The notes: generated from the letters alone by a model not told the origin. 64,000 bases of DNA from Octopus vulgaris (GCA_951406725.2 OX597828.1:744001-808000); one strand, 5' to 3'. Positions 1 through 64,000 are shown, counted from the first letter of the stretch. Numbers and translations: made by a program.

Positions 1-502
1 CTGCAAAGTTACTGTTTTTAAGGGTGTCGCGAAGGGCCTTGTTGGAGATCCAGCCTTCCGAGTTCTTGTACAGGGATTAGAAAAAGTGAATGACCGCTGC
101 AATAAGTGCGTGAATCTGAGAGGGAAATATCTATATATATAAAACTCAACTTGTGTGTCTGTGTGTGTATCTGTGTGTGTGTGTGTGTGTGTTTAACTTC
201 CCGGCACATCTCCTCCTAGCCAACAAATCGTAGAACCATAAAAAATGGGTCACTTAAAGTTTAGGCGAATGAAAATTGAACTGCGCTATTTCTGTTCCGA
301 AATTCATCTCGCAAGTGCAAAGATCGATAATGTGTTTGTTTAGGCCTTATTCCATGCATTGAATAGTGAACTTTACTCAGTCAGCTGTTTGACGTGAACT
401 GTGTTCACCACGCGTGCAAGCATGCGTAAATTGCATGAAAAATAAAAAATCAAGATATAAAAACGAATCGCCGTAAACATTGTAGAAATTCGGCAAAGAA
501 AT

Positions 503-2179
503 TTTGAGGACGTCGGTTGTTATTATTTGAACGCGCGTGAAATTGTAAGTTGAAAAAATTGTTGTTGTTGAATTTGTTGTACGTTTGTTGATACGGTTTC
601 TTGTTATACTGTTTCTGTCCGGGCGGCCGTTGTCTGTCTGTGTTGAGACAGACAAAAGGATATGGACCACCCCTCCCTAATGGAGGAGTCGGAGGAGGAA
701 TGGTTATTCGAGACCTTGTCAGAAGCATCGATCTCTGAGGACGAGCTGATCGGCGCTGTGAATAATATGGACATTAAAACCGGGAAAACGTACGCTGGAG
801 CAGCAAAAAAGAAGACGACAGAGGAAAAGGAGATAAGTCTAGAAAAGTTGCCAGGTTTTCAAGCATACATAACTAAAGAAGGTGGTGAGGTAGAACTACT
901 TCCACCAGAGAAACGAGAAGAATGGTTTATGAAGAGAATTATAAAATACCAGACACATGGAAAAGATAACAAGAAAGTAGAAATAATAAAAATGGAAGTT
1001 ATTGAGGAGGCGCTAAGGAGAGAGGAGGAAGAAATCATATACATGGCAAGAGGAAACGAGTTCGGAACTATAATAGTGCAATTTGAAAACAAAAATATAG
1101 CAAGGAAAATAGCAACGAAGACAATAAAAACTGAAAAAGTAACATTATTACCCTCATACATGAACCAAAGAATAAAGAGAATAAGAGTTGAAGGGATACC
1201 CCCCCCCCACATAGAGGGTGAATGGGTCGTCGCGGCGATTATAAAAGATGCGGAAGAAGAGACGGACATTTTGCAAGCGACCGTAAAAAATGATGGTTGG
1301 CGTGGCAAAATGCTAGAGATGAGCGTTCAAGCAGAGGAGGGTGCACTAGAAAAGATGGCGGACAACATAATCTTGGGGAATATAGTAATGAGAGTGTGGG
1401 TGGAGGGCAGAGCACCAAGATGTTATAAGTGTGGACTGAGGGGCCACATAAGAGCCTACTGCCCTCCCCCACAAGAAGAAACTGTAAACCAGGAAAAAGA
1501 GGAGGTGGAGCAGGAAAAAGTTGAGGAGGAAGAAACGGAGGAGGAGAAGGAAGCCCAGACGAAATGGGAGAATGTAAGGAAAAAAAGAAAAAGAAAGAAA
1601 TCGAACTATGTCGAACCCCAACCCACCCCAACACCACCCGCACCCTCTGAGCCCCATCCTTCCCCTGCAAACAAAGATCCCACCCACTCCCCGCCTACAA
1701 GAAAACCAAAAAACGCAGACACACAAAGTAAACAAGATCCCAAGTCCCATTTTTTATGTTTTGTAAAAAAGGAAGACAATGAGAACTCGGAAAGAATCTT
1801 TTGTAAAGATGCATGGTATGAGGGAGACGATGGGAGTTACATGGTGATGGCAGATGAAGTAATGGACACAATGATGATGTTGTGTGTAAATGAGGGTGAA
1901 AAAGTGATTAAGGTGGAATTTTCGGATGAGAAGATAAAAGAGTATGAAAGGATATTTGAGAAAATGATAAGAAAAGAGGGGCTTTTGATTGAAGATGATA
2001 AATGACGATGGGTTATGAAGGACAGGTAAGTGGTGCTGGCAGATGGGGCCGTCAGCATCGCTTTCATATTATCATTCTCAAAATTTTTTTCATCCTACAT
2101 ACTTTTAATTTGTAATGTTCTGTGTCCCCAATGTCTTGTGGTATCCCCTCTGTGTCGCCCCTAGTGGGTAATAAAGAAA
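503..2179 (+). mobile_element. ORF1-only (half-LINE/HAL1-like) non-LTR retroelement, solo copy A
   Basis: Flanked by an exact 20-bp direct repeat TAGAAATTCGGCAAAGAAAT (483-502 and 2180-2199). Contains a single ORF and ends at GGGTAATAAAGAAA. No ORF2. Confidence 0.85.
662..2005 (+). CDS. Tx1/L1-clade ORF1 (gag-like) protein with CCHC zinc knuckle, 447 aa, intact
   Basis: RIRVEGIPP...RVWVEGRAPR followed by the CX2CX4HX4C knuckle CYKCGLRGHIRAYC. Then an acidic stretch, a basic KKRKRKK patch and a Pro-rich linker. Clearly homologous to the ORFs at 56.5-64 kb. Confidence 0.85.
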   Translation: MDHPSLMEESEEEWLFETLSEASISEDELIGAVNNMDIKTGKTYAGAAKKKTTEEKEISLEKLPGFQAYITKEGGEVELLPPEKREEWFMKRIIKYQTHGKDNKKVEIIKMEVIEEALRREEEEIIYMARGNEFGTIIVQFENKNIARKIATKTIKTEKVTLLPSYMNQRIKRIRVEGIPPPHIEGEWVVAAIIKDAEEETDILQATVKNDGWRGKMLEMSVQAEEGALEKMADNIILGNIVMRVWVEGRAPRCYKCGLRGHIRAYCPPPQEETVNQEKEEVEQEKVEEEETEEEKEAQTKWENVRKKRKRKKSNYVEPQPTPTPPAPSEPHPSPANKDPTHSPPTRKPKNADTQSKQDPKSHFLCFVKKEDNENSERIFCKDAWYEGDDGSYMVMADEVMDTMMMLCVNEGEKVIKVEFSDEKIKEYERIFEKMIRKEGLLIEDDK

Positions 2180-3047
2180 TAGAAATTCGGCAAAGAAATG
2201 AATTTTCGGGATGTAGCCTGGAGGGTTTTTTCGTATTAATCGTTTGGACTTTGTGAACACATACCAATTGTTTTCATAACATTTTTAACGCTTTGAATTA
2301 AATGTGACCATTTTGCGTTGATTCTGCAGTTTGTATCACTTTAACCAAATTTTAGCAGGCCGGATTTTTGATCATCACTGCTAGCCCGAAAAGAATAACA
2401 AGCTACATAATGCAAAATTTTTACTTTTAAGTGAACATTTTTCTGGTTGAAATATACCGAAAAATGTTGACTTTGCCTTTTATCCTTTTGGTGTCGATAA
2501 ATTAAGTATAAGCTTGCGTACTGGGGTCGCCATTTTTCGGTGTATTTCAACCAGAAAAATGTACACTTAAAGAGCTACATAATGCAAAATTTTTAATTTT
2601 CAAAAATTCCAATTCTAAACGGTCGAAACAAACCCGAACAACGCCGGGCGATACTGCTAGTGTGGAATAAAATCATAATCAACTGATCCTACTGTATTTT
2701 CTTTTGCCCAAAGCCAGGAACTTTTCAGCCCCACCCACCCCTGTACACACACACACACACACACACACACGTAATCAGCCATAACTTTATATAGCAAATA
2801 TGTAAACAAACCGACGGAGGAATTTAGCTGTTGCATCGAAGCAATGGAGTGACACTGCTGACGAGTCCCAGTTATAGGATGGGGCAATTTATTAGTATAT
2901 ATAAATCTGTTTCTCACACGTCTGTAAGAGTTTTAACTCTTATTTCTAGCAATAACTGTGATTTTAGTACTCACAGTTACAATTAGTGATGACTATATTT
3001 TTCCTATATGGCTTTGAATTGTGGCTAGCTGCTCACATTAATTTTTA

Positions 3048-3084
<37 letters not shown>

Positions 3085-3141
3085 TTCATTTTCTGCATTA
3101 CGATACCAAATATTGATACGCTTCACCATTCTCTTTCCAAG

Positions 3142-3210
3142 GTTCGATCAAAGATTAATCATTTATGATTTATCATACACAAATGATATGAAAATACGTC
3201 CTCTGGTGGT
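3142..3210 (+). CDS. Host WD40-repeat gene, internal exon a (FDQRLIIYDLSYTNDMKIRPLVV)
   Basis: ctctttccaag| ... |gtaagt; phase 2 to phase 2, joining exon b in frame. Confidence 0.75.
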
Positions 3211-3372
3211 GTAAGTAATAAAATCTCTTATCTTTCTTAGTAAGTCTTCTTAAACCTGATTCCAGTCTTCTTACTGTTGCTATTGTTGTTGTTTATCATC
3301 TTCGTCCTCAATCGTCACCATTCACTAAGTCCATCGATTCCACAACTGCTACAAATACCTCCCTCGTCACAG

Positions 3373-3403
<31 letters not shown>

Positions 3404-3548
3404 CAATACCATCACCATCAATATTACCACTTTTATCATCACCCCATTTCTTCCTCTTATCGCTATCACCCACCATCTTTCTTTCTGTAGATCAATCTCT
3501 TCCAAGAAGCACTTGACCCATAAGATATTTCTGTTTATCTTTTTCAAG

Positions 3549-14876: not shown

Positions 14877-15720
14877 CTAGCAGAATTGCCCGGCGTTGCT
14901 CGGGGCTGAATTGCTTGAAAGTACTGTTAATGATTGCACTGAATTATGATGATTATTCAGGCAAATATTGATATAAGTTTACGGTGGGAGATAAGGACTT
15001 AACGATCAAACGTGTGCCACTGCATTGTTTTGGGGGAACCAAATTTCTGATGAGCATTATAGGGGCACCAACTTTAAGTTTGAGAAAGTGTGGTGGTAGT
15101 CCGGGGTGCTCAAAGGAATTGAGTACCTCTATTGGATAGTTGATGACGTCCTCTGGGTCAGGAGTTGTATCGATAGACTGATATACATAGACTTCCCCAG
15201 GAATGAGTTTTAGCATTTCATCATTAATATGGTGAACAGTTTTATTCCTCGGGGCCAGTATAGCCTTTTTGCCAATCCAATCCATATTCTGATAATTAGC
15301 TTGTAGATCTGGGAACACTGCATCTCTGAGATCAGAAGGCGTCTTAACAATGGTACAAATGGAATCGATGGCAATATTACCATTTTCATCCCCTGGTATT
15401 TTGCCTTCGCCAAGTGCAAGGAGGGTGTGAGAAATGCTGCTGATGTGATATTACGTCGCATATGAGAACGCATATTGGTGTGAAGTTTGAGAGTTACTTC
15501 CCTTTATTTAAAAAAATATGCATTAAAATGGAAAAAAATGATGGTAAATTATTTGTAAAATCATAGACTCATCGTAGACGCGCTCTAATACGCAGAAGGG
15601 CTCGATATGAATCACGACTATAAGATACCCGGTTTTGGTTAAACTGCATCGCAAAATGTGGGACTAGTTAGGAATCTAAATCGGAGTAGACAGACACACA
15701 ACCTTTCTTTTATATATAAA
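14877..15720 (-). mobile_element. Internally deleted Helitron retaining a PIF1-type helicase fragment
   Basis: 3' CTAG plus hairpin at 14877-14910. ORF 14953-15318 contains AILAPRN...PGLPPHFLKLKVGAPIMLIRNL...CSGTRLIV, the Helitron RepHel helicase C-terminus. The 5' part is shared with 17003-17305. Confidence 0.9.
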
Positions 15721-17557: not shown

Positions 17558-17627
17558 GATATATATACATATATATAAATATAAAAGAGTAAAAGAGCAT
17601 ATATGTATATCTATATATATAAAATGC

Positions 17628-18743
17628 GTTGAGTGTCGAGCAATGATCTGGTTTTTGTATTTGAAAGGACGCACACCACGGGAGACTTTTGATGAAATGA
17701 AAGTAACTTATGGTAATGATGCACCATCATATGACCTTGTAAAACGCTGGCATCGTGAATTCAAACATGGTCGGAACTCGGTGGAAACAGCTCCCAGATC
17801 TGGTCGCCCCCCTTCTGCAGTTGATGAGGCATCTGTCCGTCAAGTTGAGGCTGCCATTTTGGAAGATCGACGCATAACTATTCGCCAAATAGCCCACGGG
17901 GTCAAGATTAGTACCGGGTCTGTGGAAACTATCATTCATGACCATTTGCATATGCAAAAGGTGTCTGCCAGATGGATTTCCAGGTTGCTCACACCTTTCA
18001 GAAGCAAGAACGCGTCGAGTGCTCGAGGATGAATTTGGAGATGTGCCATGAAGATGAGTCAAAATTTTTCAAAAGACTGATTACACAGGATGAAACCTGG
18101 GTCCATCACTATGATCCAGAGACCAAAGCCCAGTCAATGCAGTGGAAGCACCGTGACTCACCTCCTCCAAAGAAGGCAAGGGTGCAGCCCTCCGCTGACA
18201 AGGTTATGCTCACAGTCTTCTGGGACCAGGACGGAGTATTGATAACAGATTTCCTGGCAAAGGGTACCACAATTACAGGAGCCTATTATGCTTCACTTTT
18301 GAGGAAATTAAGAGAAACTATCAAAATCAAGAGGCGGGGCAAGATCAGTAAAGGCATCCTCCTCCTGCAGGACAACGCTCCGGTCCACAACTCGCTTGTC
18401 GCTAGATCAGAAGCACAGGCGTGCGGCTATGAAATCCTCCCCCATCACCCCTACTCTCCTGACCTTGCACCCTCTGATTTTCACCTCTTTCCAGCCATGA
18501 AGTTGTTTTTGAAAGGAAAGCGTTTCTCAGATGATGCAGCTTTGATTTCTGAAGTCAGGTCGTGGTTGGAGGACCAAGCTGGGTCTTCTAAAAAATACGG
18601 TCTCCAGAGCTGCATTAAACGATAGGAGAAATGCGTAACTCTGGGTGGTTCCTATGTAGAGAAAGACTAATAACTGTGCAAAGTTTCGTTGCTCTACTGC
18701 TATGGGAAGTGGGTCAGGGGCATTACTTATTGAATGCTCCTCG
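17628..18743 (+). mobile_element. 5'-truncated mariner copy
   Basis: Same family as 11158; QDETW, QDNA and HHPYSPDLAPSDFHLF motifs; right TIR plus TA present, left TIR missing. Confidence 0.95.
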
Positions 18744-19044: not shown

Positions 19045-22712
<3,668 letters not shown>

Positions 22713-22768
22713 TAGTTTATTCTTATCGACAGGAAACCTGACTTTTGTGTTTATCAATTCTTATTTAG

Positions 22769-26279: not shown

Positions 26280-26762
26280 AATAAGCCTAAAAAAAACTGT
26301 TAAGTATATCCACACCTTATCAAACCATCCCCAAACTGTCATTAAGGAGGTGTGTCGATAAGAATATCTAATTTATCCGCCAATGAAAAAATACTTAACG
26401 AGTTTGCACCCCTTTATAATGCAGCACTAAAAGACAGCGGTTTTAACAGTGAAATATACTATATTAAAAACACAATATTTAAAAACAAATTAGGCAACCA
26501 GTTTCCAAATATTACAAATTATAGCGATAACACATATCCTATAAACAACCTCACCGAATATAGAAACCAACAACACATTAGAAGTCACTGTATAATTTTC
26601 AAGTATAGCAAAAACGATACGGGGCAGAATAGGAACTATTCTGGGAGGAAACGAGAAATTGTATGGTTTACACCCCACTTCTCCCTCCAGATAAGAAACC
26701 CACCTCAGTTATTTTTTAGCATTATCGATAGGAACTTCCCACTTGGTCATAAAAAACAACTA
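26280..26762 (+). pseudogene. Penelope-like element fragment (post-RT domain)
   Basis: YIHTLSNHP...RISNLSANEKILNEFAPLYNAALKDSGF...REIVWFTPHFSLQI...IIDRNFP. Confidence 0.75.
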
Positions 26763-29215
26763 GGACGTATAACATTCTGGATCTCTGCTTCACGAACAAT
26801 ATGGACATCATTCATGATGTGAAAGTGACACCGACATTAGTTTCGGATCACAACATAATAGAGCTGTCTATGCTTGGGCCGAAAGTAACCAGAAACATAC
26901 AGCCTAAAGGAAGCACCCGAAATCTTTCCAATCTGAACTTCCACAAAGCAGATTGGAAATCGATCCAAAAAGAGATCCTCAGAGAGGACTGGCCGAAATG
27001 TCTCTCCTCACCAGACATTGACATAAAACTAGAATGTTTCATGTCTTCTGTGCAAGCCATATGCCAGAAAAATGTCTCGGAGCACAAGGCCAAAGCAAAT
27101 AGGAGCAAGATTCCAAGAGATAGGAAGATCCTCGTGAGACGAGGGACGAAGGTTGCAAATCGACTCAACCAACATCCCAAAAGCAGCGAAACGTCCCGCC
27201 TAAAAACAACACTGATAGAGATTGAAAAAAGGCTGCAACAATCCTATGTGAGGGAGAAAGCAGACAAAGAAGCCTGGGTTATAAAAAACATTAAGTCAAA
27301 CCCAAAGGCCTTCTTTCATTACGCGAAAGAAACAGCCTCAGTACACTACAAGATAGGACCCCTCCTCCAAAAGGATGGCTCCCTCACAGACAGTCCAACT
27401 AAGATCAGTGAGACGCTGAATGACCAGTTCAAAAGTGTCTTTACCACCCCGTTGGAAGACAGACAAGTGAACGAACCAGTGGACTTCTTTGCCGCCTCAC
27501 CTATAACCAGCGAGGCAGTTACAATAGAATACAGTGACATTAGCGAAAAAGATATACTACTAGCCATAGATGAAGCGGACACAAACTCAACTGCTGGTTC
27601 TGATGGTTTCCCAGCAATCCTCCTCAAATCGTGTAAACATTCCCAGGCAAAACCCCTCAAGATTCTCTTCCAGAGCTTTCTTACAAATGGCAAACTGCCA
27701 AGCAAGCTGAAGGAGGGAATAATATGCCCAATACATAAAGGGGGAAGTAGAGCAGATGCCAAAAACTATAGGCCTATCTCTCTGACTTCACACATCAGCA
27801 AAGTCATGGAACGGATAGTCAGAGGGAAACTAATTGCATTCCCTGAAAGAAATAACTTGCTAAGTGACACCCAACATGGTTTTCGACCATGTAGGAGCTG
27901 CCTGACCCAGCTCTTACAACATTATGACTGGGTGTTGAGGCAGTTACTCAACAAATCAAATGTGGATGTAATATACCTTGATTTTGCAAAAGCTTTTGAC
28001 AAGGTGGATCATGGCATGATATGCCACAAACTACGTGACCTCGGCATAGCTGGAAAACTTGGCGTGTGGTTACATGACTTCCTGAATGATCAGAGTCAGG
28101 CAGTAGTGGCTAATGGAGCCACCTCTATGAACACACAAATAGTGAGCGGTGTTCCACAGGGCACTGTCTTAGGACCACTGCTTTTTATAGTGGCCTTCTC
28201 AGATATGCCCTCAAATGCCCAGATAGTCACTCTGGCAAGCTATGCAGATGATACAAAAGTCTCAAAAAAAACAGAACCCCAGCGATGTTGCACACCTGCA
28301 GCATGAGTTGGACTCAATTTACAGATGGGCTGAGGATAATAATATGCAGTTTAATGCTGAAAAATTCCAAGCCTTGCGCTACCAGCATCCAAAACTGAAT
28401 ATTAAACCTACACGGTACACTGGTCCACAGGGAATTTTAATCCCAGAGCCTAAGTCAGTGAGGGACCTGGGTATGGACATGAGTGATGATACCTCTTTCC
28501 AAGTGCACATTACCAGGATGGCGACAAAGTGCAGACGACTAGCTGGATGGATCCTAAGAACATTCAGAACCAGAGATAAGGAAATCATGATGGTCCTCTA
28601 GAGGACATTCGTCCTCAGCCGCCTGGATTACTGCTCACAGCTATGGTCACCCACCAGTGTGAAATTAACAGCGGACCTTGAAGCAATCCAGAGAAGATTC
28701 ACAAAGAAGATCGTCTCTTTGCAACAGCTCAGCTACTGGGAAAGGTTGAAGCAGATAAGACTCTACTTCCTGGAGAGAAGGCGGGAGAGGTATGCAGTAA
28801 TATATATCTGGAAGATCCTGGAAGGAATTGTGCCAAATTTTGGCATTGAAAGCTACACCAATGCCAGAACGGGACGACACTGCACAGTGCCAAAGATCCC
28901 AGCAATACCATCACGCTTCAGGACCAATTACTGCAACAGCCTGGGTTTCAAGGGTCCACAGCTTTTTAATATTCTCCCAAAGAGTCTGAGGAACTTGCAT
29001 AAAGTAGATGTAGGGGCTTTTAAATCAAAGCTGGACCTCTTTTTGTCGAGTGTCCCAGATGAGCCTACCTCACGGCAAGAGGTGCAAATGAGGGTAGCTA
29101 TATCAAATTCCATTCTTCATCAAGTGCCACATATTAGAGGAGGCTCCTAGTAATAACAGTGTAGCGCAAAACAGCGGTGCATCAGCATGGCCGCAGGTCT
29201 GAGCAGAAACTTTTT
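26763..29215 (+). mobile_element. 5'-truncated CR1-group LINE (end of APE, RT, 3' UTR)
   Basis: ORFs 26801-28306, 28242-28601 and 28659-29150 carry the full RT motif set; related to the 19-22.6 kb copy. Confidence 0.92.
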
Positions 29216-33624: not shown

Positions 33625-35888
<2,264 letters not shown>

Positions 35889-48942: not shown

Positions 48943-49019
48943 GTGTGTGTGTGTGTGTAAATATATCTTTATATATATATATCTTTATATATACATATCT
49001 TTATATATAAACATATATG

Positions 49020-49631: not shown

Positions 49632-52310
49632 TGTTGTGTGGACGCCCCCAGACGATGAAGTAGGCTAGCCCAATACGTAGATATAGAGGGAGAAGTCTAG
49701 ACGTCAAGGAATTGAGTAGAAGATTTTGTAGTTGACAGGTGTTATTTTGAGTTGCTGAAGTTGAGTTATATTTGTGAGTAGAAGTGAATTTATTGTTGAT
49801 ATTGCTTTTATTAATACCGTTGTTATTACTGTTAATTTTTTGTGTTGTTGAATCTTCCGATTGAGAAGGTGCCAGCGGGCGGCCACAGCTATGCAGTCGC
49901 AACTGGAGGACAAGCAGAGAAGGAAGCATTGAAGACGTATGAAATAAAAGTCGAGCCCAGAAAGATGAAGCCTAGCAAGAATCTGCTGAGAAAGGAAGGC
50001 GAGAAGATAATGTTGATGCCATCCGAGGAACTGACGAACAGTGTTATGAAGAGGACGGTGACGTACAAGACCGTGAAGGCCGCTACTAGAAAAATTGAGA
50101 TAGCATCGGTGGAGGAGATCGAGAAGGTGCTGGAAAGCATGAAGAAGGTGATAATATTCAGAGCATGAGGCAGGAAATATGCCACTGTGGACGTGCGTTT
50201 TACGTCAGAGGAGGAAGCGGTGAGGCATGTGACGGAGGCAATCCGCTCAGGAGAATGGATTCTTCAGCCATCCTATTGCGGCAAACGTGTAGCGAGAGTT
50301 CGGGTGGGTCAGGTACCCACTGAGCTGGAGGAAGCATGGCTGATGATGGCTATCATGTATAGCATGGAGGAGGAGGCCAAAATTCTGAAGGCAACCAGAA
50401 CAAACAAGGTGGACTACTGGGCTATGGGTTGGAGTTAACAATCCAGGCAACAGTGGAAGACCTCAACAGAATACCAGAGGAGATAGTGTTACCTGACGGG
50501 TTTTCACTAAGAATGAAGGATGAGGGCAAACCGCCTGTGTGTTATGAATGTGGCGAAAAGGGTCACATGAAGGCGAGATGCCCACGAAAAGAACAGATAG
50601 AGACTAACGAAAACGTTGAACAGGCAGTGACAGTTGAGAATAAGGAGAAAGCTGACGAAGAAGAATTCACACTGTTGGAAAGAAAAAGGAGTAGTGGTAG
50701 GGTAACCCTGCCGCCGACTAACCAAAAAAAGAAGAAAGAAGAGGTGGAAAAGAAAGAAACGACGAGAAAGAAAGAGGATACGGAAAAGGAAAGTGATCGA
50801 ATAATTAAGGTGTGTGACAACGAGTCAGAGAAGGAGGAAGCGTGTACAGGTGATTTGACGGAGGTCTTAGGAACGCAACTACAGGAGGATGAGATGGAGA
50901 AGCTGTTTACGGTAGAGACGGAGAAAGAGAAGGTACCAGACTCAGAGAAGAGTATAGAGGAGCTGTTGTTAGAAAAGGTAGTAAAGGAAGAAAGGAGAAG
51001 ACTGAGAGGAGGTAAGAACTAATGGAATTTTGTAACCTATTCGAAGAATAAGGAGGTGGAGAAGAAAATAGTTAAATTTAAGCACATCATTAGGGTAAAG
51101 CTACCAACTGACGTGTACCCAGAGAGTGTAGAGGCCATTGTGGTCGATAGAGGAACATAAGGAAGCTTAAGGATATATGTGGAAATAGGATTGACCCAGT
51201 TGGTGGAGTTTAATGAGCTGCCACCGGTAATCGATCTGGTGGAGTTAGAGCTGTATATGAGGCATTAAAATGAGGGGGAAAAAAGGAAAAAAAGAAAGGA
51301 AAAAGTTTGAAGAAATAGGAAAAAAACGATAATTAAATGAAAAAAAAGAAAAAATTATCAACAGACAGTGTGTGTACAAACGTTCAAATGGTACTGTATG
51401 AGGAGTGGGGCCCATGTAGCCATTCATCTTACATTTTTATATAATTCATATTCATTCGTTATATGTTTATTGTCCCCACTGTGGTGTTGTGTCTGTCTTT
51501 GTAATGTCCCCTCTGTGTTAAGTGGCCTGAGTGCCAAAATAAAAAATCAGTTGAGTAGAGGTCATCCGAACGTGTGATATAACAGTGGTGACGAGGATTT
51601 CGTAGCTCACACAGCCACTGTGTAGTATTGCGATATAACAGTGGCGACGAGGTTTCGAATAGTACCGAAATGGAAGAGTTACTGAAAGCAGTTGTAAAAC
51701 AACATGAGCAACAGCAGCAACAACTACAGAAGTTGTTACTGCAGTCGAGAAATATGACAGAATCATTTTCAGCAGATGGTGTTGCAAATTCCATCGAAGA
51801 ATTTCACTGCAATCCGGATGAAGGAACTACTTTTGCTGCATATTACAGACAATACGAAGACGTATTCCAAGAGGAATGCAAGAGATGGTCTAATGAAAGG
51901 AAGGTAAGGCTCTTTTTGCGAAAGCTTGCTACTCCGAAACACGAAAGATTTTCTAATTTTATTTTACCGAGAAAGCTCGCGCAATTGTGTTTTGATGAAA
52001 CGATAAATATTTTGACTAATATTTTTAGCGAGAAAAGTTCACAGTTTAACATTCGGTGGGAATGCTTAAATTTAAAGAAAAATGAGCCGACGATTTTGTA
52101 ATATATGCTGGTATGATTAATAAGGCTTGCAAAAGGTTTAAGCTGAAAGAATTAATGCCAGATATGTTCAAGTGCCTAATATTTGTTAAAGGGCTGGTGG
52201 CAACGGAAGACGCGGAAATTAGAAAAAGAATATTATCAAAGTTGAATCAAAATGTGAAACTCACTTTGCAGAATATGGCTGAGGAATGCCAACAAATAAT
52301 AAACATTTGT
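49632..52310 (+). mobile_element. Ty3/Gypsy remnant: short split 5' LTR (49632-49720 plus 51560-51584), PBS, gag fragment
   Basis: TGTTGT...ATAACA termini. PBS TGGTGACGAGGAT, complementary to a tRNA-Ser(GCU)-type 3' end, duplicated at ~51642. Gag-like ORF 51670-52310 (SIEEFHCNPDEGTTFAAYYRQYEDVF...KVRLFLRKL). Confidence 0.75.
49721..51550 (+). mobile_element. ORF1-only retroelement, diverged solo copy B (ORF disrupted)
   Basis: 9-bp TSD TTGAGTAGA (49712-49720, 51551-51559). ORF pieces 49842-51268 contain RVRVGQVP...EGKPPVCYECGEKGHMKARC. 3' UTR shares TGGGGCC, TGTCCCC and TAATGTCCCCTCTGTGT, and ends AATAAAAAATCAG. Confidence 0.8.
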
Positions 52311-52787: not shown

Positions 52788-52789
52788 CT

Positions 52790-56277: not shown

Positions 56278-58015
56278 GATGGATAATAAAAAATTAAATT
56301 AAAGAAAAGACTATTGTCTATAAAGTATGTAGAGAAAAAAGGTCGTGTTTTTTTCGGCTCCTGAAATTCGGTAAAAAAGAACAAAAAGCGTTGTTGTTGT
56401 TGTGGAAATTCTGAACGGCGTTGATGCGGTTTCGCGTCTCACTGGTTCTGCGCGTTACACTTTTTCGGTTCGGGAGGCCGTTTTTCGGTCTGAGGCGACT
56501 ATGAGCCGCCTACATCAAGCGGAGGAGATGGAAGGGAGAAATTACTCTGAAATTTCGACGGAAGTATCGACATCTGAGGAGGAGTTGGCGGTGAAAAAGA
56601 TGGAAGGCACCTACGCAGGTGTAACGAAGAAGTCAACGGAAAGAGAGATAGACCTGGCTAAGTTGGCGGGCCTCCAGGAGTTTGTGAAGGAGGACGAGAA
56701 CGGTGAAGTCGAGCTGCTGAATCCAGTAGGGCGCGGAGACTGGTTCCATCGTAGAACCATTAAATATAAAGTATTTATGAATGGAGGTAGAAAGATGGAA
56801 GTAATTAACATGGAAGCAATTGAAGAGGCTCTCAAGCAGACAGGAGAGGAAATTGTGTACATGACAAAAGGATTACAATACGGAACCATAACGGTGCAAT
56901 TTAAAAGTGAAAAAGCAGCCAGGAATGTAGCAGCCAAGGTGGTGAGTACAGAAAAGATTTACTTGTTACCCTCGTATCTGAATAGGCGGACAACCAGAAT
57001 TAGGGTGGAGGGAATACCTCCACACCTAGAGGGCGAATTAATAACGGCTGCGGTTATAAAAGGAAATGAAGATAAAGTGGACATCCTCCACGCCATTATG
57101 AAGTATGAAGGCGTGAGAGGTGCCACACTAGTTATGAACATTCAAACGGAGGCGGATGTTATAGAGAGGATTACGGACAGCATAAAAACTGGAAATATTA
57201 TTATGAGAGTGTGGGTGGAGGGTAGGGCGCCCAGGTGCTACAAGTGTGGCCAGAGGGGTCACATAAGAGCCTACTGCCCTCCCCCACCAAAGGAAAAAGA
57301 AAAGGAAAGCGTTGAGGAAGCCTCAAGAGAGGAAGAAAATAAACAGAAACAAACAGAGAAGGAAACGACAGAAGAAGAGGAGATGCAACAAGAGTGGAAA
57401 GAAGGGGGAACAAAGAGAAAAAGAAGGAAAAAGAAAAACTGTGCGAAGCCCCAACCCACCCCGACACCACCCATACCCTTGGAGTCCCATCCTTCCCCTG
57501 CAAACAGTGATTCCACCCACTCCCCTCCAACAAGAAAACAAAAAAAAATTAACACAGACAGACAAGAGACTGAAAGCGAACCCAGGCCGAACATTTGTAT
57601 TATGACAGAACAGGAAGAGGTTAAAAGGGTAATGGAAGGGTATACATGGTGCGATTCAGGTGTGACCAGGTGTGCAGTGATTGAAAAGGAGCGAATAGAT
57701 GAGTTTATGAGAAGGTGCGAAAGGGAGAATTGGGAGGTGGAAGAGATGAGTCTGAGTGATGAATCCGTGAAAAATATGGAGAATCGTTTTGAAGTGAGAA
57801 TGGAGAATATCGGTTTTATTATTGGAAATTGGAGTGACGGCGAAAACCAAAGGACAGGTAAGTGATGCTAACGGATGGGGCCTTTAGCATCGCTTTCATA
57901 TTATCATTTTTTCATGTAACAATTCATCCTTCATAAATTTAATTATAATGTTCTATGTCCCCATGTCTTGTAATGTCCCCCTCTTCGTTGGCCCCTTGTG
58001 GGTAATAAAGAATCA
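56278..58015 (+). mobile_element. ORF1-only element, array unit 1 (distinct subfamily)
   Basis: Leader, ORF, then 3' UTR ending GGGTAATAAAGAATCA; 5' boundary uncertain. Confidence 0.85.
56501..57865 (+). CDS. Tx1/L1-type ORF1 CCHC protein, intact, 454 aa from first ATG
   Basis: RVWVEGRAPRCYKCGQRGHIRAYC; ends QRTGK*. Confidence 0.85.
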   Translation: MSRLHQAEEMEGRNYSEISTEVSTSEEELAVKKMEGTYAGVTKKSTEREIDLAKLAGLQEFVKEDENGEVELLNPVGRGDWFHRRTIKYKVFMNGGRKMEVINMEAIEEALKQTGEEIVYMTKGLQYGTITVQFKSEKAARNVAAKVVSTEKIYLLPSYLNRRTTRIRVEGIPPHLEGELITAAVIKGNEDKVDILHAIMKYEGVRGATLVMNIQTEADVIERITDSIKTGNIIMRVWVEGRAPRCYKCGQRGHIRAYCPPPPKEKEKESVEEASREEENKQKQTEKETTEEEEMQQEWKEGGTKRKRRKKKNCAKPQPTPTPPIPLESHPSPANSDSTHSPPTRKQKKINTDRQETESEPRPNICIMTEQEEVKRVMEGYTWCDSGVTRCAVIEKERIDEFMRRCERENWEVEEMSLSDESVKNMENRFEVRMENIGFIIGNWSDGENQRTGK

Positions 58016-59777
58016 ATTGTCTATAAAGTATACAATGTAGAGAAAGGTCGCGTTTTTTTCGGCTCCTGAAAATTCGGTAAAAAAGAACAAAAAGCGTTGT
58101 TGTTGTTGTGGAAATTCTGAACGGCGTTGACGCGGTTTCGCGTTTCGCTCGTTCAGCGCGTTACACTTTTTCTGTTTTGGCGGCCGTTTTCGGTCTGTCA
58201 GACAGAAGGAAATGGACTATGAGTCTTTAACAGACTTGTCCACGACAGATGAGGAACTGGAACAGGCAATTGCAATGAAGCTGATGGAAGAAAAGGCTGG
58301 AGTTTTCGAGTCTTTATCAGACTTGCCTACGTCTGAGAAGGAGCTAGAAACGGCAGCAAGGGAATTGGAAGAGAAGCTGGGTTATACCTATGCCGGTGTA
58401 ACCAAGAAGGCGGAAGAAAAGGGGTCGACATGGCCAAGTTGCCAAGTTACCAGAAATACATGAAAAAGGAAAGCGGTGAGGTGGAACTATCACCGACACC
58501 CAGGAGAAAAGAATGGTATGATAAGAGGACCATTGTTTACAGGGTGTTCGCAAACGAAAGGAAGAGGGTAGAAGTTGTAACCATGGAATGGATAGAGGAA
58601 GCCCTGCGAAGAACTGAGGAGGAAATAAATTTTCTGACTCGAGGATCCAAGTACGGGACCGTAGTTGTGCACTTTGAAGGTGAATCTGCAGCGAGGAGGA
58701 TGGCAGCGAGGGCGGTGAGGTCGGAAAGGGTAACACTGTTACCTACGTATTTAAACAGGAGGATTGCACGAATGAGGGTGGAGGGAGTGCCACCAAGCGT
58801 GGAGGCAGAATGGATTGTGGCGGCTGTGATCAGCGGCCACGAGGACGAAGTGGATATTCTCCATGCCTCGGTTAAGTCCGAGGGCTGGAGAGGCGTAACA
58901 GTGGAGCTGAACGTACAGGCAGAGACCGAGGTACTGGTGGACCTGACGGAAGGCATCAGACTGGGAGAAGTGATCATGAGAGTGTGGGTGGAGGGCAGGG
59001 CTCCACGTTGTTACAAGTGTGGCCTGAGGGGTCACATAAGAGCCTTCTGCCCTCCCCCAGGGAAAGAAATGGATCCCGAACCAGAGAGAGAGAAGCAGAA
59101 ACCAGAGGAGAAGGAAACAGAGGAGGAGAATACACAGAAATGGAAGGAAGCTGGAAGTAAGAGGAAGAGAAGAATACGTGGAAAAGAAAATAATATGGAA
59201 CTCCAATCCGCCCCAAAGCCACCCACGCCCTCTGAGTCCCACCCTATCCATGCAGACATTGAACCCACCCGCTCCCCCCAACAAGAAAACAAAAGAAGAA
59301 AAAGAATACACACACACAAGAGATTGAAATCGATATCAGGCCGTACATTTGTACTATGACTGAACAGAAAGAAGTTAGAAGTCTAATGGAAGAGTATAAA
59401 TGGTATGATGTTGGTGAGACTAGGTATGCTGTGATTGAAAGGAAGAACATAGGTGACTTTATGGTGATGTGTGAATGCGAGAATTGGGAGGTGAAAGATA
59501 TAAGAATGAGCGATGAATTCGTGGAAAGTATGGATGAGTATTTCGGAGTAAGAATGGATATGGAATTTATTCGTATTGGCAAGGAACATTCAAGTGACTA
59601 TGAAAAGCAAAGGACAGGTAAGTGATGCTGACGGACGGGGCCGTTGGTATCGCTTTCATTTAATCATTTTTTCGTTTAACAGTTCATTTTCATAAAGTTT
59701 AATTATAGTGTTCTATGTCCCCATGTTTTGTTATGTCCGCCATTCTTCGTAGCCCCTTAGTGGGTAATAAAAAAAAG
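58016..59777 (+). mobile_element. ORF1-only element, array unit 2 (ORF 58212-59625 with frameshifts)
   Basis: Starts ATTGTCTATAAAG directly after unit 1; ORF split across 58212-58463, 58430-59359 and 59356-59625. Confidence 0.88.
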
Positions 59778-61577
59778 AGATGGATAATAAAAAATTAAAT
59801 TAAAGAAAAGACTATTGTCTATAAAGTATACAATGTAGAGAAAGGTCGCGTTTTTTCGGCTCCTGAAAATTCGGTAAAAAAGAACAAAAAGCGTTGTTGT
59901 TGTTGTGGAAATTCTGAACGGCGTTGACGCGGTTTCGCGTTTCGCTCGTTCAGCGCGTTACACTTTTTCTGTTTTGGCGGCCGTTTTCGGTCTGTCAGAC
60001 AGAAGGAAATGGACTATGAGTCTTTAACAGACTTGTCCACGACAGATGAGGAACTGGAACAGGCAATTGCAGTAAAGCTGATGGAGGAAAAGGCTGGAGT
60101 TTTCGAGTCTTTATCAGACTTGTATATCTGAGGAGGAGCTAGAAATAGCAGTGAGGAAAATGGATCAGAAGCTGGGTTATACCTATGCCGGTGTAACCAA
60201 GAAGGCGGAAGAGAAAGGGGTCGACATGGCCAAGTTGCCAAGTTACCAGAAATACATGAAAAAGGAAAGCGGTGAGGTGGAACTATCACCGACACCCAGG
60301 AGAAAAGAATGGTATGATAAGAGGACCATTGTTTACAGGGTGTTCGCAAACGAAAGGAAGAGGGTAGAAGTTGTAACCATGGAATGGATAGAGGAAGCCC
60401 TGCGAAGAACTGAGGAGGAAATAAATTTTCTGACTCGAGGATCCAAGTACGGGACCGTAGTTGTGCACTTTAAAAGTGAATCTGTAGCGAGGAAGATGGC
60501 AGCGAAGGCGGTGAAGTCGGAAAAGGTAACACTGTTACCTACGTATTTAAACAGGAGGATTACACGAATAAGGGTGGAGGGAGTGCCACCAAACGTGGAG
60601 GCAGAATGGATTGTGGCGGCTGTGATCAGCGGCCACGAGGACGAAGTGGATATTCTCCATGCCTCGGTTAAGTCCGAGGGCTGGAGAGGCGTAACAGTGG
60701 AGCTGAACGTACAGGCAGAGACCGAGGTACTGGTGGACCTGACGGAAAGCATCAGACTGGGAGAAGTGATCATGAGAGTGTGGGTGGAGGGCAGGGCTCC
60801 ACGTTGTTACAAGTGTGGCCTGAGGGGTCACATAAGAGCCTTCTGCCCTCCCCCAGGGAAAGAAATGGATCCCGAACCAGAGAGAGAGAAGCAGAAACCA
60901 GAGGAGAAGGAAACAGAGGAAGAGAATACACAGAAATGGAAGGAAGCTGGAAGTAAGAGGAAGAGAAGAATATGTGGAAAAAAAGAAAATAATATGGAAC
61001 TCCAATCTACCCCAAAACCTCCCACACCCTCTGAGTCCCACCCTATCCATGCAGACATTGAACCCACCCGCTCCCCCCCAACAAGAAAACAAAAGGAAAA
61101 AAAGAATACACACACACAAGAGATTGAAATCGAACCCAGGCCGTACATTTGTACTATGACTGAACAGAGGGAAGTTAAAAGTCTAATGGAAGAGTATAAA
61201 CGGTATGATGTTGGAGAGACTAGGTATGCTGTGATTGAAAAGAAGAACATAGGTGAGTTTATGGGGAGGTGTGAAAGGGAGAATTGGGAGGTGAAAGATA
61301 TAAGAATGAGCGATGAATTCGTGGAAAATATGAATGAGTATTTCGGAGTAAGAATGGATATGGAATTTATTCGTATTGGCAAAGAACATTCAAGTGACTA
61401 TGAAAAACAAAGGACAGGTAAGTGATGCTGACGGACGGGGCCGTTGGTATCGCTTTCATTTTATCATTTTTTTTCGTTTAACAATACATGTTCATAAAGT
61501 TTAATTATAATGTTCTATGTCCCCATGTCTTTTGTTGTCCCCCTCTGTGTCGCCCCTTAGTGGGTAATAAAAAATCA
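59778..61577 (+). mobile_element. ORF1-only element, array unit 3 (ATG 60009, small deletion ~60122; long frame 60151-61425)
   Basis: Starts AGATGGATAATAAAAAATT; ends GGGTAATAAAAAATCA. Confidence 0.88.
60151..61425 (+). CDS. ORF1 CCHC protein of unit 3, N-terminally disrupted
   Basis: 424-aa open frame containing CYKCGLRGHIRAFC. Confidence 0.7.
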   Translation: MRKMDQKLGYTYAGVTKKAEEKGVDMAKLPSYQKYMKKESGEVELSPTPRRKEWYDKRTIVYRVFANERKRVEVVTMEWIEEALRRTEEEINFLTRGSKYGTVVVHFKSESVARKMAAKAVKSEKVTLLPTYLNRRITRIRVEGVPPNVEAEWIVAAVISGHEDEVDILHASVKSEGWRGVTVELNVQAETEVLVDLTESIRLGEVIMRVWVEGRAPRCYKCGLRGHIRAFCPPPGKEMDPEPEREKQKPEEKETEEENTQKWKEAGSKRKRRICGKKENNMELQSTPKPPTPSESHPIHADIEPTRSPPTRKQKEKKNTHTQEIEIEPRPYICTMTEQREVKSLMEEYKRYDVGETRYAVIEKKNIGEFMGRCERENWEVKDIRMSDEFVENMNEYFGVRMDMEFIRIGKEHSSDYEKQRTGK

Positions 61578-63295
61578 GCTCCTGAAAATTCGGTAAAAAA
61601 GAACAAAAAGCGTTGTTGTTGTGGAAATTCTGAACGGCGTTGACGCGGTTTCGCGTTTCGCTCGTTCAGCGCGTTACACTTTTTCTGTTTTGGCGGCCGT
61701 TTTCGGTCTGTCAGACAGAAGGAAATGGACTATGAGTCTCTAACAGACTTGTCCACGACGGATGAGGAACTGGAACAGGCAATTGCAGTGAAGCTGATGG
61801 AGGAAAAGGCTGGAGTTTTCGAGTCTTTATCAGACTTGCCTACGTCTGAGAAGGAGCTAGAAATGGCAGCAAGGAAATTGGAAGACAAGCTGAGTTATAC
61901 CTATGCCGGTGTAACCAAGAAGGCGGAAGAGAAAGGGGTCGACATGGCCAAGTTGCCAAGTTACCAGAAATACATGAAAAAGGAAAGCGGTGAGGTGGAA
62001 CTATCACCGACACCCAGGAGAAAAGAATGGTATGATAAGAGGACCATTGTTTACAGGGTGTGCGCAAACGAAAGGAAGAGGGTAGAAGTTGTATCCATGG
62101 AATGGATAGAGGAAGCCCTGCGAAGAACTGAGGAGGAAATAAATTTTCTGACTCGAGGATCCAAGTACGGGACCGTAGTTGTGCACTTTAAAAGTGAATC
62201 TGCAGCGAGGAAGATGGCAGCGAAGGCGGTGAAGTCGGAAAAGGTAACACTGTTACCTACGTATTTAAACAGGAGGATTACACGAATAAGGGTGGAGGGA
62301 GTGCCACCAAACGTGGAGGCAGAATGGATTGTGGCGGCTGTGATCAGCGGCCACGAGGACGAAGTGGATATTCTCCATGCCTCGGTTAAGTCCGAGGGCT
62401 GGAGAGGCGTAACAGTGGAGCTGAACGTACAGGCAGAGACCGAGGTACTGGTGGACCTGACGGAAAGCATCAGACTGGGAGAAGTGATCATGAGAGTGTG
62501 GGTGGAGGGCAGGGCTCCACGTTGTTACAAGTGTGGCCTGAGGGGTCACATAAGAGCCTTCTGCCCTCCCCCAGGGAAAGAAATGGATCCCGAACCAGAG
62601 AGAGAGAAGCAGAAACCAGAGGAGAAGGAAACAGAGGAAGAGAATACACAGAAATGGAAGGAAGCTGGAAGTAAGAGGAAGAGAAGAATATGTGGAAAAA
62701 AAGAAAATAATATGGAACTCCAATCTACCCCAAAACCTCCCACACCCTCTGAGTCCCACCCTATCCATGCAGACATTGAACCCACCCGCTCCCCCCCAAC
62801 AAGAAAACAAAAGAAAAAAAAGAATACACACACACAAGAGATTGAAATCGAACCCAGGCCGTACATTTGTACTATGACTGAACAGAGGAAGTTAAAAGTC
62901 TAATGGAAGAGTATAAACGGTATGATGTTGGAGAGACTAGGTATGCTGTGATTGAAAAGAAGAACATAGGTGAGTTTATGGGGAGGTGTGAAAGGGAGAA
63001 TTGGGAGGTGAAAGATATAAGAATGAGCGATGAATTCGTGGAAAATATGAATGAGTATTTCGGAGTAAGAATGGATATGGAATTTATTCGTATTGGCAAA
63101 GAACATTCAAGTGACTATGAAAAACAAAGGACAGGTAAGTGATGCTGACGGACGGGGCCGTTGGTATCGCTTTCATTTTATCATTTTTTTCGTTTAACAC
63201 TTCATGTTCATATAGTTTAATTATAATGTTCTATGTCCCCATGTTTTGTGATGTCCGGCACTCTTCGTAGCCCCTTAGTGGGTAATAAAGAAATA
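61578..63295 (+). mobile_element. ORF1-only element, array unit 4 (ORF 61725-63142, one frameshift ~62888)
   Basis: Starts GCTCCTGAAAATTCGG; ends GGGTAATAAAGAAATA. Confidence 0.88.
61725..63142 (+). CDS. ORF1 CCHC protein of unit 4 (single 1-nt deletion, possibly a sequencing error)
   Basis: Frames 61725-62903 and 62903-63142 together are colinear with unit 3. Confidence 0.7.
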
Positions 63296-64000
63296 CGTTT
63301 TTTTTCGGCTCCTGAAATTCGGTAAAAAAGAACAAAAAGCGTTGTTGTTGTTGTGGAAATTCTGAACGGCGTTGACGCGGTTTCGCGTTTCGCTCGTTCA
63401 GCGCGTTACACTTTTTCTGTTTTGGCGGCCGTTCTCGGTCTGTCAGACAGAAGGAAATGGACTATGAGTCTCTAACAGACTTGTCCACGACAGATGAGGA
63501 ACTGGAACAGGCAATTGCAATGAAGCTGATGGAAGAAAAGGCTGGAATTTTCGAGTCTTTATCAGACCTGCCTACGTCTGAGAAAGAGCTAGAAATGGCA
63601 GCAAGGAATTTGGAAGAGAAGCTGGGTTATACCTATGCCGGTGTAACCAAGAAGGCGGAAGAGAAAGGGGTAGACATGGCCAAGTTGCCAAGTTACCAGA
63701 AATACATGAAAAAGGAAAGCGGTGAGGTGGAACTATCACCGACACCCAGGAGAAAGGAATGGTATGATAAGAGGACCATTATTTACAGGGTGTTCGCAAA
63801 CGAAAGGAAGAGGGTAGAAGTTGTAACCATGGAATGGATAGAGGAGGCCCTGCGAAGAACTGAGGAGGAAATAAATTTTCTGACTCGAGGATCCAAGTAC
63901 GGTACCGTAGTTGTGCATTTCAAAACTGAGTCTGCAGCGAGGAAGATGGCGGCGAAGGCGGTGAAGTCAGAAAAGGTAACCCTATTACCTACGTATTTAA
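63296..64000 (+). mobile_element. ORF1-only element, array unit 5 (ATG 63457, runs off the window)
   Basis: Starts CGTTTTTTTTCGGCTCC; MDYESLTDLS... frame open to the window end. Confidence 0.88.

What the first reader, a model, noticed from the sequence alone, without database searches (positions are those of the whole stretch)
503..2179. A mobile family that encodes only a Tx1/L1-type ORF1 (no RT) yet inserts with clean target-site duplications
Seen: a 1.68-kb unit made of a short leader, one intact 447-aa CCHC-knuckle ORF and a ~170-nt 3' UTR, bounded by an exact 20-bp TSD inside a Helitron. A much more diverged relative (49721-51550) has the same layout and size, with a 9-bp TSD inside a Gypsy LTR. 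At least five more units form the array at 56-64 kb. Both ends are defined by TSDs and no ORF2 remnant exists, so these are not truncated LINEs; ordinary 5' truncation loses ORF1, not ORF2. Known: HAL1 (half-L1) elements and Drosophila HeT-A are precedents for ORF1/gag-only non-LTR elements. Inference: an old, diversified lineage (at least 4 subfamilies in 64 kb) that keeps its own RNA-binding protein and borrows RT/endonuclease in trans. I am not aware of a description in cephalopods but cannot search.
Basis: partly seen in the sequence, partly recalled or inferred. Interest (0 to 1): 0.85.

Follow-up and report, generated by a model that had tools for sequence, protein, structure and literature searches.

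The report
Octopus ORF1-only hitchhiking retrotransposon family
This is a real 1.7-kb jumping element of octopuses that makes only its own RNA-packaging protein and most likely borrows the copying enzyme from another element; that way of life is known from mammals, flies and mosquitoes, but this lineage is old and diverse, lacks a poly(A) tail, and one copy carries what look like RNA-editing scars written back into DNA.

Summary
Unit A (503-2179) has one intact 447-aa ORF and an exact 20-bp duplication. Contigs of 3 of 4 public runs show the empty Helitron site with a single 20-mer, so it is a true target-site duplication. The protein folds as two RRMs plus one CCHC knuckle, a LINE type-I ORF1, under purifying selection between subfamilies (dN/dS 0.15-0.20). 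All 15 species-named relatives among 30 looked up are octopods. All 6 complete units share a 3' tail and end 6 nt after AATAAA, with no poly(A) and no room for ORF2. Best reading (0.72): an old non-autonomous non-LTR lineage, mobilised in trans; it works like HAL1, HeT-A and Ag-Sponge. Not shown: the Tx1/L1 label, the partner, and that no copy elsewhere runs on into ORF2 (no genome was held). The scan's own notes held no earlier report of it. New variant of a known kind.

The parts
130..2660 (+). Host non-autonomous Helitron (834 bp without the insert), very high copy
   Evidence: TC...CTAG ends, A|T target; joints 129->2661 and depth
483..502 (+). Left copy of the 20-bp target-site duplication of unit A
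   Evidence: empty site in 3 of 4 runs
503..661 (+). Unit A leader, GT-rich, homologous to the U leader; presumed internal promoter (inferred)
   Evidence: local alignment score 72-85 vs shuffle maximum 33
662..2005 (+). ORF1 of unit A, 447 aa, intact
905..1414 (+). Two tandem RRM-fold domains (aa 82-169 and about 168-251)
   Evidence: AlphaFold2 pLDDT 89-97 in this part; Foldseek best IMP3 RRM12 E 2.4e-5; VIA Z 9.3, rmsd 2.5, 80 aligned to La RRM
1418..1465 (+). Single CCHC zinc knuckle (aa 253-268)
   Evidence: PF00098 E 0.087 here, below cut-off; 7.8e-5 in unit B
1742..1996 (+). Extra C-terminal alpha/beta domain of unknown kind after a disordered linker
   Evidence: block pLDDT 68-91 in the full model but mean 54 when folded alone; no Atlas hit
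2023..2061 (+). Splice-donor-like motif (2023-2031) running into a conserved stem-loop with a GGGGCC motif, about 135-143 nt from the 3' end
   Evidence: (z -3.2 to -4.2 in A and U1-U4; +0.8 in B); covariation not significant (34 of 500)
2170..2181 (+). AATAAA plus 6 nt = 3' end, no poly(A); the last 2 nt coincide with the start of the right TSD
2180..2199 (+). Right copy of the 20-bp TSD
49721..51550 (+). Unit B, diverged (22-40% aa identity to A/U over pieces), ORF broken, same tail, 9-bp TSD at 49712-49720 / 51551-51559
49632..51584 (+). LTR-like host of unit B, followed by a gag-like frame at 51592-52101
   Evidence: sequence; PF23309
55447..55695 (-). Lineage C: N-terminal piece of a fifth, very diverged ORF1, head-to-head with the array
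   Evidence: tblastn E 4e-5; family HMM E 2.3e-19
56285..56340 (+). C-like ORF1 coding fragment in front of U1; the same DNA recurs as 30-nt and 66-nt spacers before U2 (58016-58045) and U3 (59778-59843)
   Evidence: score 91 vs shuffle maximum 56; junctions
56341..58015 (+). Array unit U1, intact 454-aa ORF (56501-57865), about 72% nucleotide identity to U2-U4
58046..59777 (+). Array unit U2, frameshifted, with 23 private sense-strand A>G changes, 9 of them in 58676-58797
59844..61577 (+). Array unit U3; last 40 nt resemble unit A rather than U2/U4
61578..63295 (+). Array unit U4, about 16 nt short at the 5' end
63296..64000 (+). Array unit U5, about 5 nt short at the 5' end, cut by the window end

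Best explanation
An old, octopod, non-autonomous non-LTR retrotransposon lineage that kept ORF1 and a 3' recognition tail and lost ORF2. Shown: one-ORF anatomy, RRM-RRM-CCHC fold (predicted), true TSD, selection on ORF1, a fixed 3' end, staggered 5' ends. Inferred: the GT-rich leader drives a 1.7-kb RNA; ORF1p binds and chaperones that RNA in cis; the stem-loop about 140 nt from the end recruits the endonuclease-RT of an autonomous LINE in trans; target-primed reverse transcription at staggered nicks gives 9-20 bp duplications, starting 6 nt past AATAAA without a poly(A) tail; early stops give 5'-short copies, and template jumps or repeated insertion at a neighbour's A-rich end give the head-to-tail array. 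The likeliest partner is an L1-Tx1-type LINE (my estimate about 0.55 given this model; untested). The RNA is a target of host ADAR editing, and edits can be fixed in new copies (about 0.75 for U2).
For: Empty Helitron site with one 20-mer in 3 of 4 runs. A contig of run X2 (record 13, 1232 nt, 2 differences over 1440-1642, then about 1 kb unlike the window on the upstream side) reads as a 5'-truncated copy at another locus (my reading of the record's coordinates). 6 of 6 complete units end 6 nt after AATAAA and 135-143 nt after the hairpin motif in the 4 measured. Array junctions join a complete 3' end to 5' starts at -66, -30, +16 and +5 nt. No terminal direct or inverted repeats in A, B, U3, no APE/RT remnant. 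Fold: tandem RRMs; type-I ORF1 is defined as RRM(s) directly before a CCHC knuckle (PMC4120745). dN/dS 0.15-0.20 in 7 between-subfamily pairs, upper 95% bounds 0.25-0.30, dS near saturation; 11 of 15 changed codons between U5 and U4 are synonymous. The ORF-to-tail junction is homologous in A, U1 and U2-U4, so the loss of ORF2 predates their split. 925 relatives at E<=1e-3, deeply branched. U2: A>G 23 vs T>C 3 (p 0.0015), vs G>A 3 (p 1.6e-4), 5' G in 2 of 23 vs 33% background (p 0.008), clustered (p 0.004); U1 has A at 16 of the 23 sites and G at 3. Candidate partners exist: 13 recently active L1-Tx1 families in O. vulgaris (PMC13282606 Table 1).
Against: No genome was held, so TSD-bounded ORF1-only copies could not be counted against copies that continue into ORF2; the loose-end table was filled by Helitron rows. 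No autonomous element sharing the tail was found: the tail profile hits only the 6 units it was built from, not the window's LINEs. Covariation in the hairpin is not significant and B's hairpin is weak (-8.9 kcal/mol, z +0.8). A perfect splice-donor-like motif sits at the start of the tail in A and U1-U4, which this model does not need. There is no poly(A), unlike what I recall of L1-driven copies. B's 9-bp TSD has no empty-site proof. The empty-site joint is absent from run X2 and flagged 'between: not known'. U2's A>G changes were not checked against reads and the array's frameshifts could be assembly errors.
Confidence: 0.72

Rival explanations
1. The units are retrocopies of RNAs that end early, at a signal between ORF1 and ORF2 of a longer autonomous LINE; the 'tail' is really the inter-ORF spacer, and the donor-like motif splices or protects read-through into ORF2.
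For: CAG|GTAAGT is intact at the start of the tail in 5 of 6 complete units, with AATAAA about 140 nt later. A homologous ORF-to-tail junction is expected here too. No genome-wide test was possible.
Against: 0 of 6 complete units run on beyond AATAAA+6, across lineages that are 22-60% identical in protein. Early polyadenylation should leave poly(A), and none is seen. B lacks the donor yet has the same end. The donor also lies at the foot of the stem, which can explain its conservation.
Confidence: 0.13
2. Each subfamily is a separate, recent internal-deletion derivative of its own autonomous LINE; the selection seen on ORF1 was accumulated in the autonomous parents, so there is no old free-standing lineage.
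For: HAL1 arose several times independently (PMC5753468 passage); recently derived ORF2-defective elements share UTRs with their progenitors in Drosophilids (PMC13534243 passage). A sister clade of longer, slower-evolving ORF1s exists and may belong to autonomous elements.
Against: A, U1 and U2-U4 share the same ORF-to-tail junction although synonymous sites are nearly saturated; U5 vs U4 differences are mostly synonymous. The sister clade is about 20% identical in the profile comparison (its five rows were also inside the larger alignment, so that comparison is not independent), too distant to be a recent parent.
Confidence: 0.08
3. A domesticated host gene family (ZCCHC3- or L1TD1-like RNA-binding restriction factors) whose intronless mRNAs are retrocopied as processed pseudogenes.
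For: A ZCCHC3-domain cluster is among the nearest Atlas look-alikes (0.89, a lead only). Octopus annotations call many relatives genes. Purifying selection fits.
Against: No poly(A); five lineages in 64 kb, all inside or among other repeats; near-identical multi-copy family with a truncated dispersed copy; most copies broken; conserved tail geometry across lineages.
Confidence: 0.05
4. A gag-only LTR or DIRS-type element, or a DNA-level duplication, rather than a non-LTR retrotransposon.
For: The knuckle resembles retroviral nucleocapsid knuckles.
Against: No terminal repeats; TSD lengths differ (20 and 9); the fold is RRM, not capsid; staggered 5' and fixed 3' ends.
Confidence: 0.02

Closest known systems
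HAL1 (half-L1), mammals
   Same: Non-autonomous, encodes only ORF1p (PMC5753468 passage); dispersed copies.
   Different: ORF1p here is type I (two RRMs + one CCHC), not the Transposase_22 type of mammalian L1 (no such Pfam match). No poly(A) tail (HAL1's tail is recalled, not read; the 2010 paper was not held). Different phylum, independent origin.
HeT-A and other ORF1-only telomeric Jockey-clade elements of Drosophilids
   Same: ORF1-only with RRM + CCHC ORF1; head-to-tail arrays with uneven 5' ends; about 40% of telomeric families are ORF1-only (PMC13534243 passage).
   Different: These insert at internal sites with TSDs, are 1.7-1.8 kb with a 170-nt tail, and have one knuckle, not three (Jockey ORF1s have three, PMC4120745).
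Ag-Sponge (CR1-derived, mosquito)
   Same: Listed as an ORF1-present bipartite non-autonomous LINE (PMC5786205 section).
   Different: Different clade and host; sequence not available for comparison.
Tx1-group ORF1p / ZCCHC3-like proteins
   Same: RRM/zf-CCHC ORF1 variants are described as consistent with the Tx1 clade (PMC5203782 passage); Atlas look-alike with ZCCHC3 domains at 0.89.
   Different: No ZCCHC3 RBD Pfam match seen (25 of 47 families shown) or 74; no RT to classify; extra C-terminal domain of unknown kind.

Membership tests
ORF1-present non-autonomous LINEs (category of HAL1, HeT-A, Ag-Sponge) | Encodes a LINE ORF1p-type protein | tested here: met
   Two RRM folds directly before a CCHC knuckle = type I of PMC4120745
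ORF1-present non-autonomous LINEs (category of HAL1, HeT-A, Ag-Sponge) | No ORF2 within the mobile unit | tested here: met
   6 of 6 complete units go from ORF1 to the 3' end within about 150-280 nt; no APE/RT match
ORF1-present non-autonomous LINEs (category of HAL1, HeT-A, Ag-Sponge) | Inserts as a unit by TPRT (variable TSD, fixed 3' end, variable 5' end) | tested here: met
   Empty site for A, 9-bp repeat for B, junctions
ORF1-present non-autonomous LINEs (category of HAL1, HeT-A, Ag-Sponge) | 5' and 3' parts shared with an autonomous counterpart | not testable with these tools
   No genome; no relatives in viral, metagenome or prokaryote contigs; window LINEs do not share the tail
ORF1-present non-autonomous LINEs (category of HAL1, HeT-A, Ag-Sponge) | ORF1-only structure holds for the family genome-wide | tested here: inconclusive
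   True for 6 of 6 complete units in the window; contigs are too short to follow other copies past the tail
HAL1 in the strict sense | Derived from L1-clade elements with Transposase_22-type ORF1p | tested here: not met
   No Transposase_22 match for window ORFs or among the families shown for 143 members; predicted fold is RRM-RRM-CCHC
HAL1 in the strict sense | Poly(A) 3' tail (recalled feature) | tested here: not met
   0 of 6 complete ends have more than AATAAA + 6 nt
Tx1 clade | RT domain groups with Tx1 RTs | not testable with these tools
   The element has no RT and no partner was found
Tx1 clade | ORF1p homologous to Tx1 ORF1p | tested here: inconclusive
   Architecture fits (passage); Atlas 0.89 to ZCCHC3-type cluster; no named Tx1 protein among the hits looked up
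HeT-A-like telomeric elements | Telomere-restricted arrays without TSD | tested here: not met
   Internal insertions with TSDs in a Helitron and an LTR
ADAR-edited retrocopy (unit U2) | Strand-specific, clustered A>G with depletion of 5' G | tested here: met
   upstream-G depletion is the shared ADAR preference (PMC5625713 passage)
ADAR-edited retrocopy (unit U2) | Same sites edited in RNA, and changes present in DNA reads | not tested

The most novel reading that the evidence does not exclude
Octopods harbour a whole radiation of ORF1-only elements: dozens of lineages at 20-35% protein identity, older than the Octopus-Argonauta split, that have persisted without an RT of their own by presenting a structured, poly(A)-less tail to a partner LINE, swap tails and leaders by template switching, and take ADAR edits back into the genome as a directed source of mutation. 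That would be the longest-lived and most diverse protein-coding parasite of LINEs described, and a genomic record for testing whether cephalopod editing restrains transposons.
Probability: 0.3. Interest if true: 0.75.

Novelty: new variant of a known kind. Interest (0 to 1): 0.52.

Why it matters
ORF1-only LINE derivatives are known from three origins (L1, Jockey, CR1). This adds a fourth, in molluscs, with a type-I ORF1, no poly(A) and signs of long independent survival, which bears on why a non-autonomous element keeps paying for ORF1p. Such elements have no RT for classifiers to see, so they probably sit among 'unknown' repeats (15% of the O. vulgaris genome, 1102 families; PMC13282606 supplement) and among false gene models: relatives appear fused to WD40, LDL-receptor and C2H2 zinc-finger genes in protein databases. 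The A>G-scarred copy offers a DNA-only way to measure how often edited RNA is reinserted; editing as transposon defence in cephalopods is proposed but called unexplored (PMC9068888 passage).

Tried and rejected
No genome was held. Word-index protein searches with unit A and with the alignment at longer lengths found nothing, although one search shows true relatives in those length ranges; they are too insensitive to count as evidence on fusion to RT. No relatives in viral contigs, metagenome contigs or prokaryote genomes. No RNA holder with a sizeable share was listed; this says nothing on expression. Rfam: no match near a gathering score for the tail. PDB sequence search found only zinc knuckles; viral fold search only generic RRM proteins. 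I first suspected that the 20-mer was part of the element, because it resembles the U leader; rejected after the empty site and the leader alignment, which puts A's homologous start at about 511. I first read the joint 1783->1882 as a 98-nt deletion; a contig of the same depth suggests a diverged stretch instead. The C-terminal domain could not be identified: folded alone it has pLDDT 54 and was not searched; profile links between the A/U tail, the B-type tail and the sister-clade tail are not significant. No TSD was found around lineage C (only 8-bp chance matches). The C-terminal dN/dS rows that include U3 were out of frame and were dropped; A vs U1 gave 0.45 with a wide interval. Depth figures (interior 235-3,410 in most bins, 22,527 in the tail bin, 160 in one flank bin for X1) were read only as 'multi-copy', not as copy numbers. 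No partner for double-stranded RNA was found for the edited stretch beyond a 17-nt palindrome. The ZCCHC3 paper passages say nothing on Tx1 ancestry.

Full report
1. What is in the sequence. Unit A spans 503-2179 between two exact copies of a 20-mer (483-502, 2180-2199), which none of 500 shuffles matched. It holds a 159-nt leader, a 447-aa ORF (662-2005) and a 174-nt tail. The host has Helitron ends at 130 and 2660. Contigs of four public runs were laid on window 1-3000: a joint 482->2180 with 20 letters fitting either side stands in X1, X5 and X7 (3, 2 and 3 contigs) and not in X2 (the tool marks it 'between: not known'). That is the empty Helitron with one 20-mer, so the repeat is a target-site duplication. 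The same call shows diverged contigs along the whole ORF in all four runs, and one X2 contig that matches 1440-1642 with 2 differences and then leaves the window on the upstream side for about 1 kb, which I read as a 5'-truncated copy elsewhere. Unit B (49721-51550) has a 9-bp flanking repeat (13 of 2000 constrained shuffles reach it) inside an LTR-like stretch; its ORF is broken. The array has five units; only U1 is open over its full length from the first ATG. A fifth lineage, C, lies on the minus strand at 55447-55695.

2. The protein. Pfam sees only a weak zinc knuckle. A profile of the window's copies found 925 proteins at E<=0.001 and 299 at 1e-10 among 1.84 billion (the two top rows are knuckle-repeat proteins and were dropped). 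Of 30 hits looked up, 15 carry a species name: 13 Octopus and 2 Argonauta. AlphaFold2 on a 143-row alignment gives a confident two-domain core, a knuckle, a disordered linker and a further C-terminal domain. Foldseek's best matches are tandem-RRM proteins (IMP3 RRM12, E 2.4e-5) and VIA-align's best is the La RRM (Z 9.3, rmsd 2.5, 80 residues). RRM(s) directly before a CCHC knuckle define type-I ORF1, found in I, Jockey, R1, Tad1, plant L1, L2 and some CR1 elements (PMC4120745, passages) and described as consistent with Tx1 in non-mammalian animals (PMC5203782, passages). So 'LINE ORF1' is well supported and 'Tx1' is plausible but not shown. A tree of 32 rows (29 of 151 proteins that cover at least 165 of 228 profile positions, plus three window copies) splits 100/100 into a 24-row, long-branched clade holding the window's copies and an 8-row, slower clade. 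The slower clade is a large family of ORF1s, mostly 520-860 aa where the C-terminal part is complete, on long unnamed contigs; whether it belongs to autonomous elements could not be seen. None of 24 hits picked for score and length has an RT or endonuclease domain; three are fused to WD40, LDL-receptor or C2H2 host domains. This does not test for a separate ORF2 next door.

3. Selection and age. Over the RRM-RRM-CCHC core, A, U1 and U2-U4 are 55-60% identical, B 22-40%, C 19-27%. dN/dS is 0.15-0.20 in the 7 between-subfamily pairs, with dS near saturation and upper bounds 0.25-0.30. Between U5 and U4, 11 of 15 changed codons are synonymous. The junction from ORF to tail is homologous in A, U1 and U2-U4. 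If the tail is the true 3' end, ORF2 was lost before these split and ORF1 has been kept under selection since.

4. The tail. All 6 complete units end 6 nt after AATAAA, with no poly(A) and no repeat tail. About 135-143 nt upstream is a stem-loop with a GGGGCC motif: z -3.2 to -4.2 in A and U1-U4, but +0.8 in B. 93% of cells pair, yet covariation is not significant with six rows (34 of 500). A perfect splice-donor-like motif sits at its foot in A and U1-U4, not B. The tail profile hits nothing else in the window, so the RT-bearing LINEs nearby are not shown to be partners. No Rfam family fits.

5. The array. Each junction joins a complete 3' end to a different 5' start: 66 and 30 nt upstream of the point homologous to A's start for U3 and U2, about 16 and 5 nt downstream for U4 and U5. 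Unequal crossing-over would repeat one junction; fixed 3' and staggered 5' ends are what reverse transcription gives. The upstream spacer is a piece of C-type ORF1 coding DNA, so the U family either carries a captured 5' flank or targets its own relatives. U1's leader is 89-91% identical to the U2/U3 leaders while its ORF is nearly saturated, and U3's last 40 nt resemble A: signs of exchange between subfamilies. Template jumping and repeated insertion at a neighbour's end could not be told apart.

6. An editing scar. U2 differs from U3 and U4 at 44 private sites; 23 are sense-strand A>G against 3 T>C (p 0.0015) and 3 G>A (p 1.6e-4). U3 and U4 together have 5 of 29 (Fisher p 0.003). G precedes 2 of the 23 sites against 33% in background (p 0.008); 3' G is not enriched (p 0.19). 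Nine lie in 122 nt (p 0.004). U1 has A at 16, G at 3 and something else at 4 of the sites. In the core these changes are all non-synonymous. Upstream-G depletion is the shared ADAR preference, and octopus has one of the two strongest hyper-editing signals of the species compared (PMC5625713, passages). The simplest reading is an edited RNA copied back into DNA, which is independent evidence for an RNA intermediate. It was not checked against reads; RT error bias or assembly error remain possible.

7. Mechanism and rivals. Best reading, 0.72: a non-autonomous non-LTR lineage whose ORF1p packages its own RNA and whose tail recruits a partner's endonuclease-RT. Promoter, cis-binding, tail function and partner are inferred. 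O. vulgaris has 80 L1-Tx1 families, 13 recently active (PMC13282606: first third of the text, passages and supplement search). Main rival, 0.13: copies of RNAs that stop between ORF1 and ORF2 of a longer LINE. Others: separate recent deletions (0.08), retrocopied host genes (0.05), LTR/DIRS or DNA duplication (0.02).

8. What is known. ORF1-present non-autonomous LINEs are a named category: HeT-A (Jockey), HAL1 (L1), Ag-Sponge (CR1) (PMC5786205, Discussion section and passages); HAL1 arose several times (PMC5753468, passages); about 40% of Drosophilid telomeric families are ORF1-only (PMC13534243, passages). The element works like these. It is not a HAL1 in the strict sense (ORF1 type, tail) nor telomeric. 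I found no description in cephalopods: searches, and term look-ups in PMC13282606 (ORF1, HAL1, non-autonomous: 0), PMC8967140 (passages) and PMC9115989 (passages). Searches for fixed ADAR edits in retrocopies gave no direct report. The HAL1 paper of 2010 was not held, most subscription journals, Repbase and Dfam could not be searched, and the O. vulgaris repeat library was not among the supplements seen, so the family may already be catalogued. PMC9068888 and PMC10351740 were seen as passages only.

9. Verdict. Observation confirmed; interpretation partly supported; new variant of a known kind; interest 0.52.

Noticed in passing
window 58676-58797 and the rest of U2 (58046-59777): Clustered sense-strand A>G changes with ADAR-like context; probably an edited RNA fixed by reverse transcription.
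   Followed up: yes
window 55447-55695 (-) and 56285-56340, 58016-58045, 59778-59843 (+): A fifth ORF1 lineage (C) head-to-head with the array; a piece of C-type coding DNA precedes U1, U2 and U3, and U1's copy lacks 5 nt that C, U2 and U3 keep.
   Followed up: partly
window 2023-2031 and equivalents in U1-U4: Perfect splice-donor-like motif at the start of the tail, about 140 nt before AATAAA; could suppress polyadenylation or join ORF1 to downstream exons. Unexplained.
   Followed up: partly
window 60125-60166 and 61529-61551 (U3): Two tight clusters of private changes; the 3' one makes U3's end resemble unit A, suggesting template switching or gene conversion between subfamilies.
   Followed up: partly
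window 1742-1996; proteins P0008, P0014, P0052, P0157: A C-terminal domain after the disordered linker, conserved within subgroups and much longer in the sister clade; no family or fold identified.
   Followed up: partly
proteins P0046, P0047, P0107: Octopus gene models in which this ORF1 is fused to WD40, LDL-receptor class A or C2H2 zinc-finger domains: annotation artefacts or exonisation.
   Followed up: no
proteins P0005, P0010, P0017, P0025, P0027, P0029: Longest contigs encoding several relatives are 1.7-2.4 kb, near the unit length; a weak hint that they are units of the same size.
   Followed up: no
window 52788-53465: Tandem repeat of about 166-bp units, 90-95% identical, downstream of the gag-like frame.
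   Followed up: no
window 19173-22716 (-), 26753-29150 (+), 33711-35700 (-), 48961-49630 (+): Several broken APE-RT LINE copies; their 3' ends do not share the element's tail.
   Followed up: partly
window 17559-18625 (+), 14953-15450 (-), 38746-39390 (-): A mariner-type transposase frame (PF01359), a Pif1 helicase fragment (PF21530) and a frame with a GIY-YIG-like motif (label recalled; no Pfam match).
   Followed up: no
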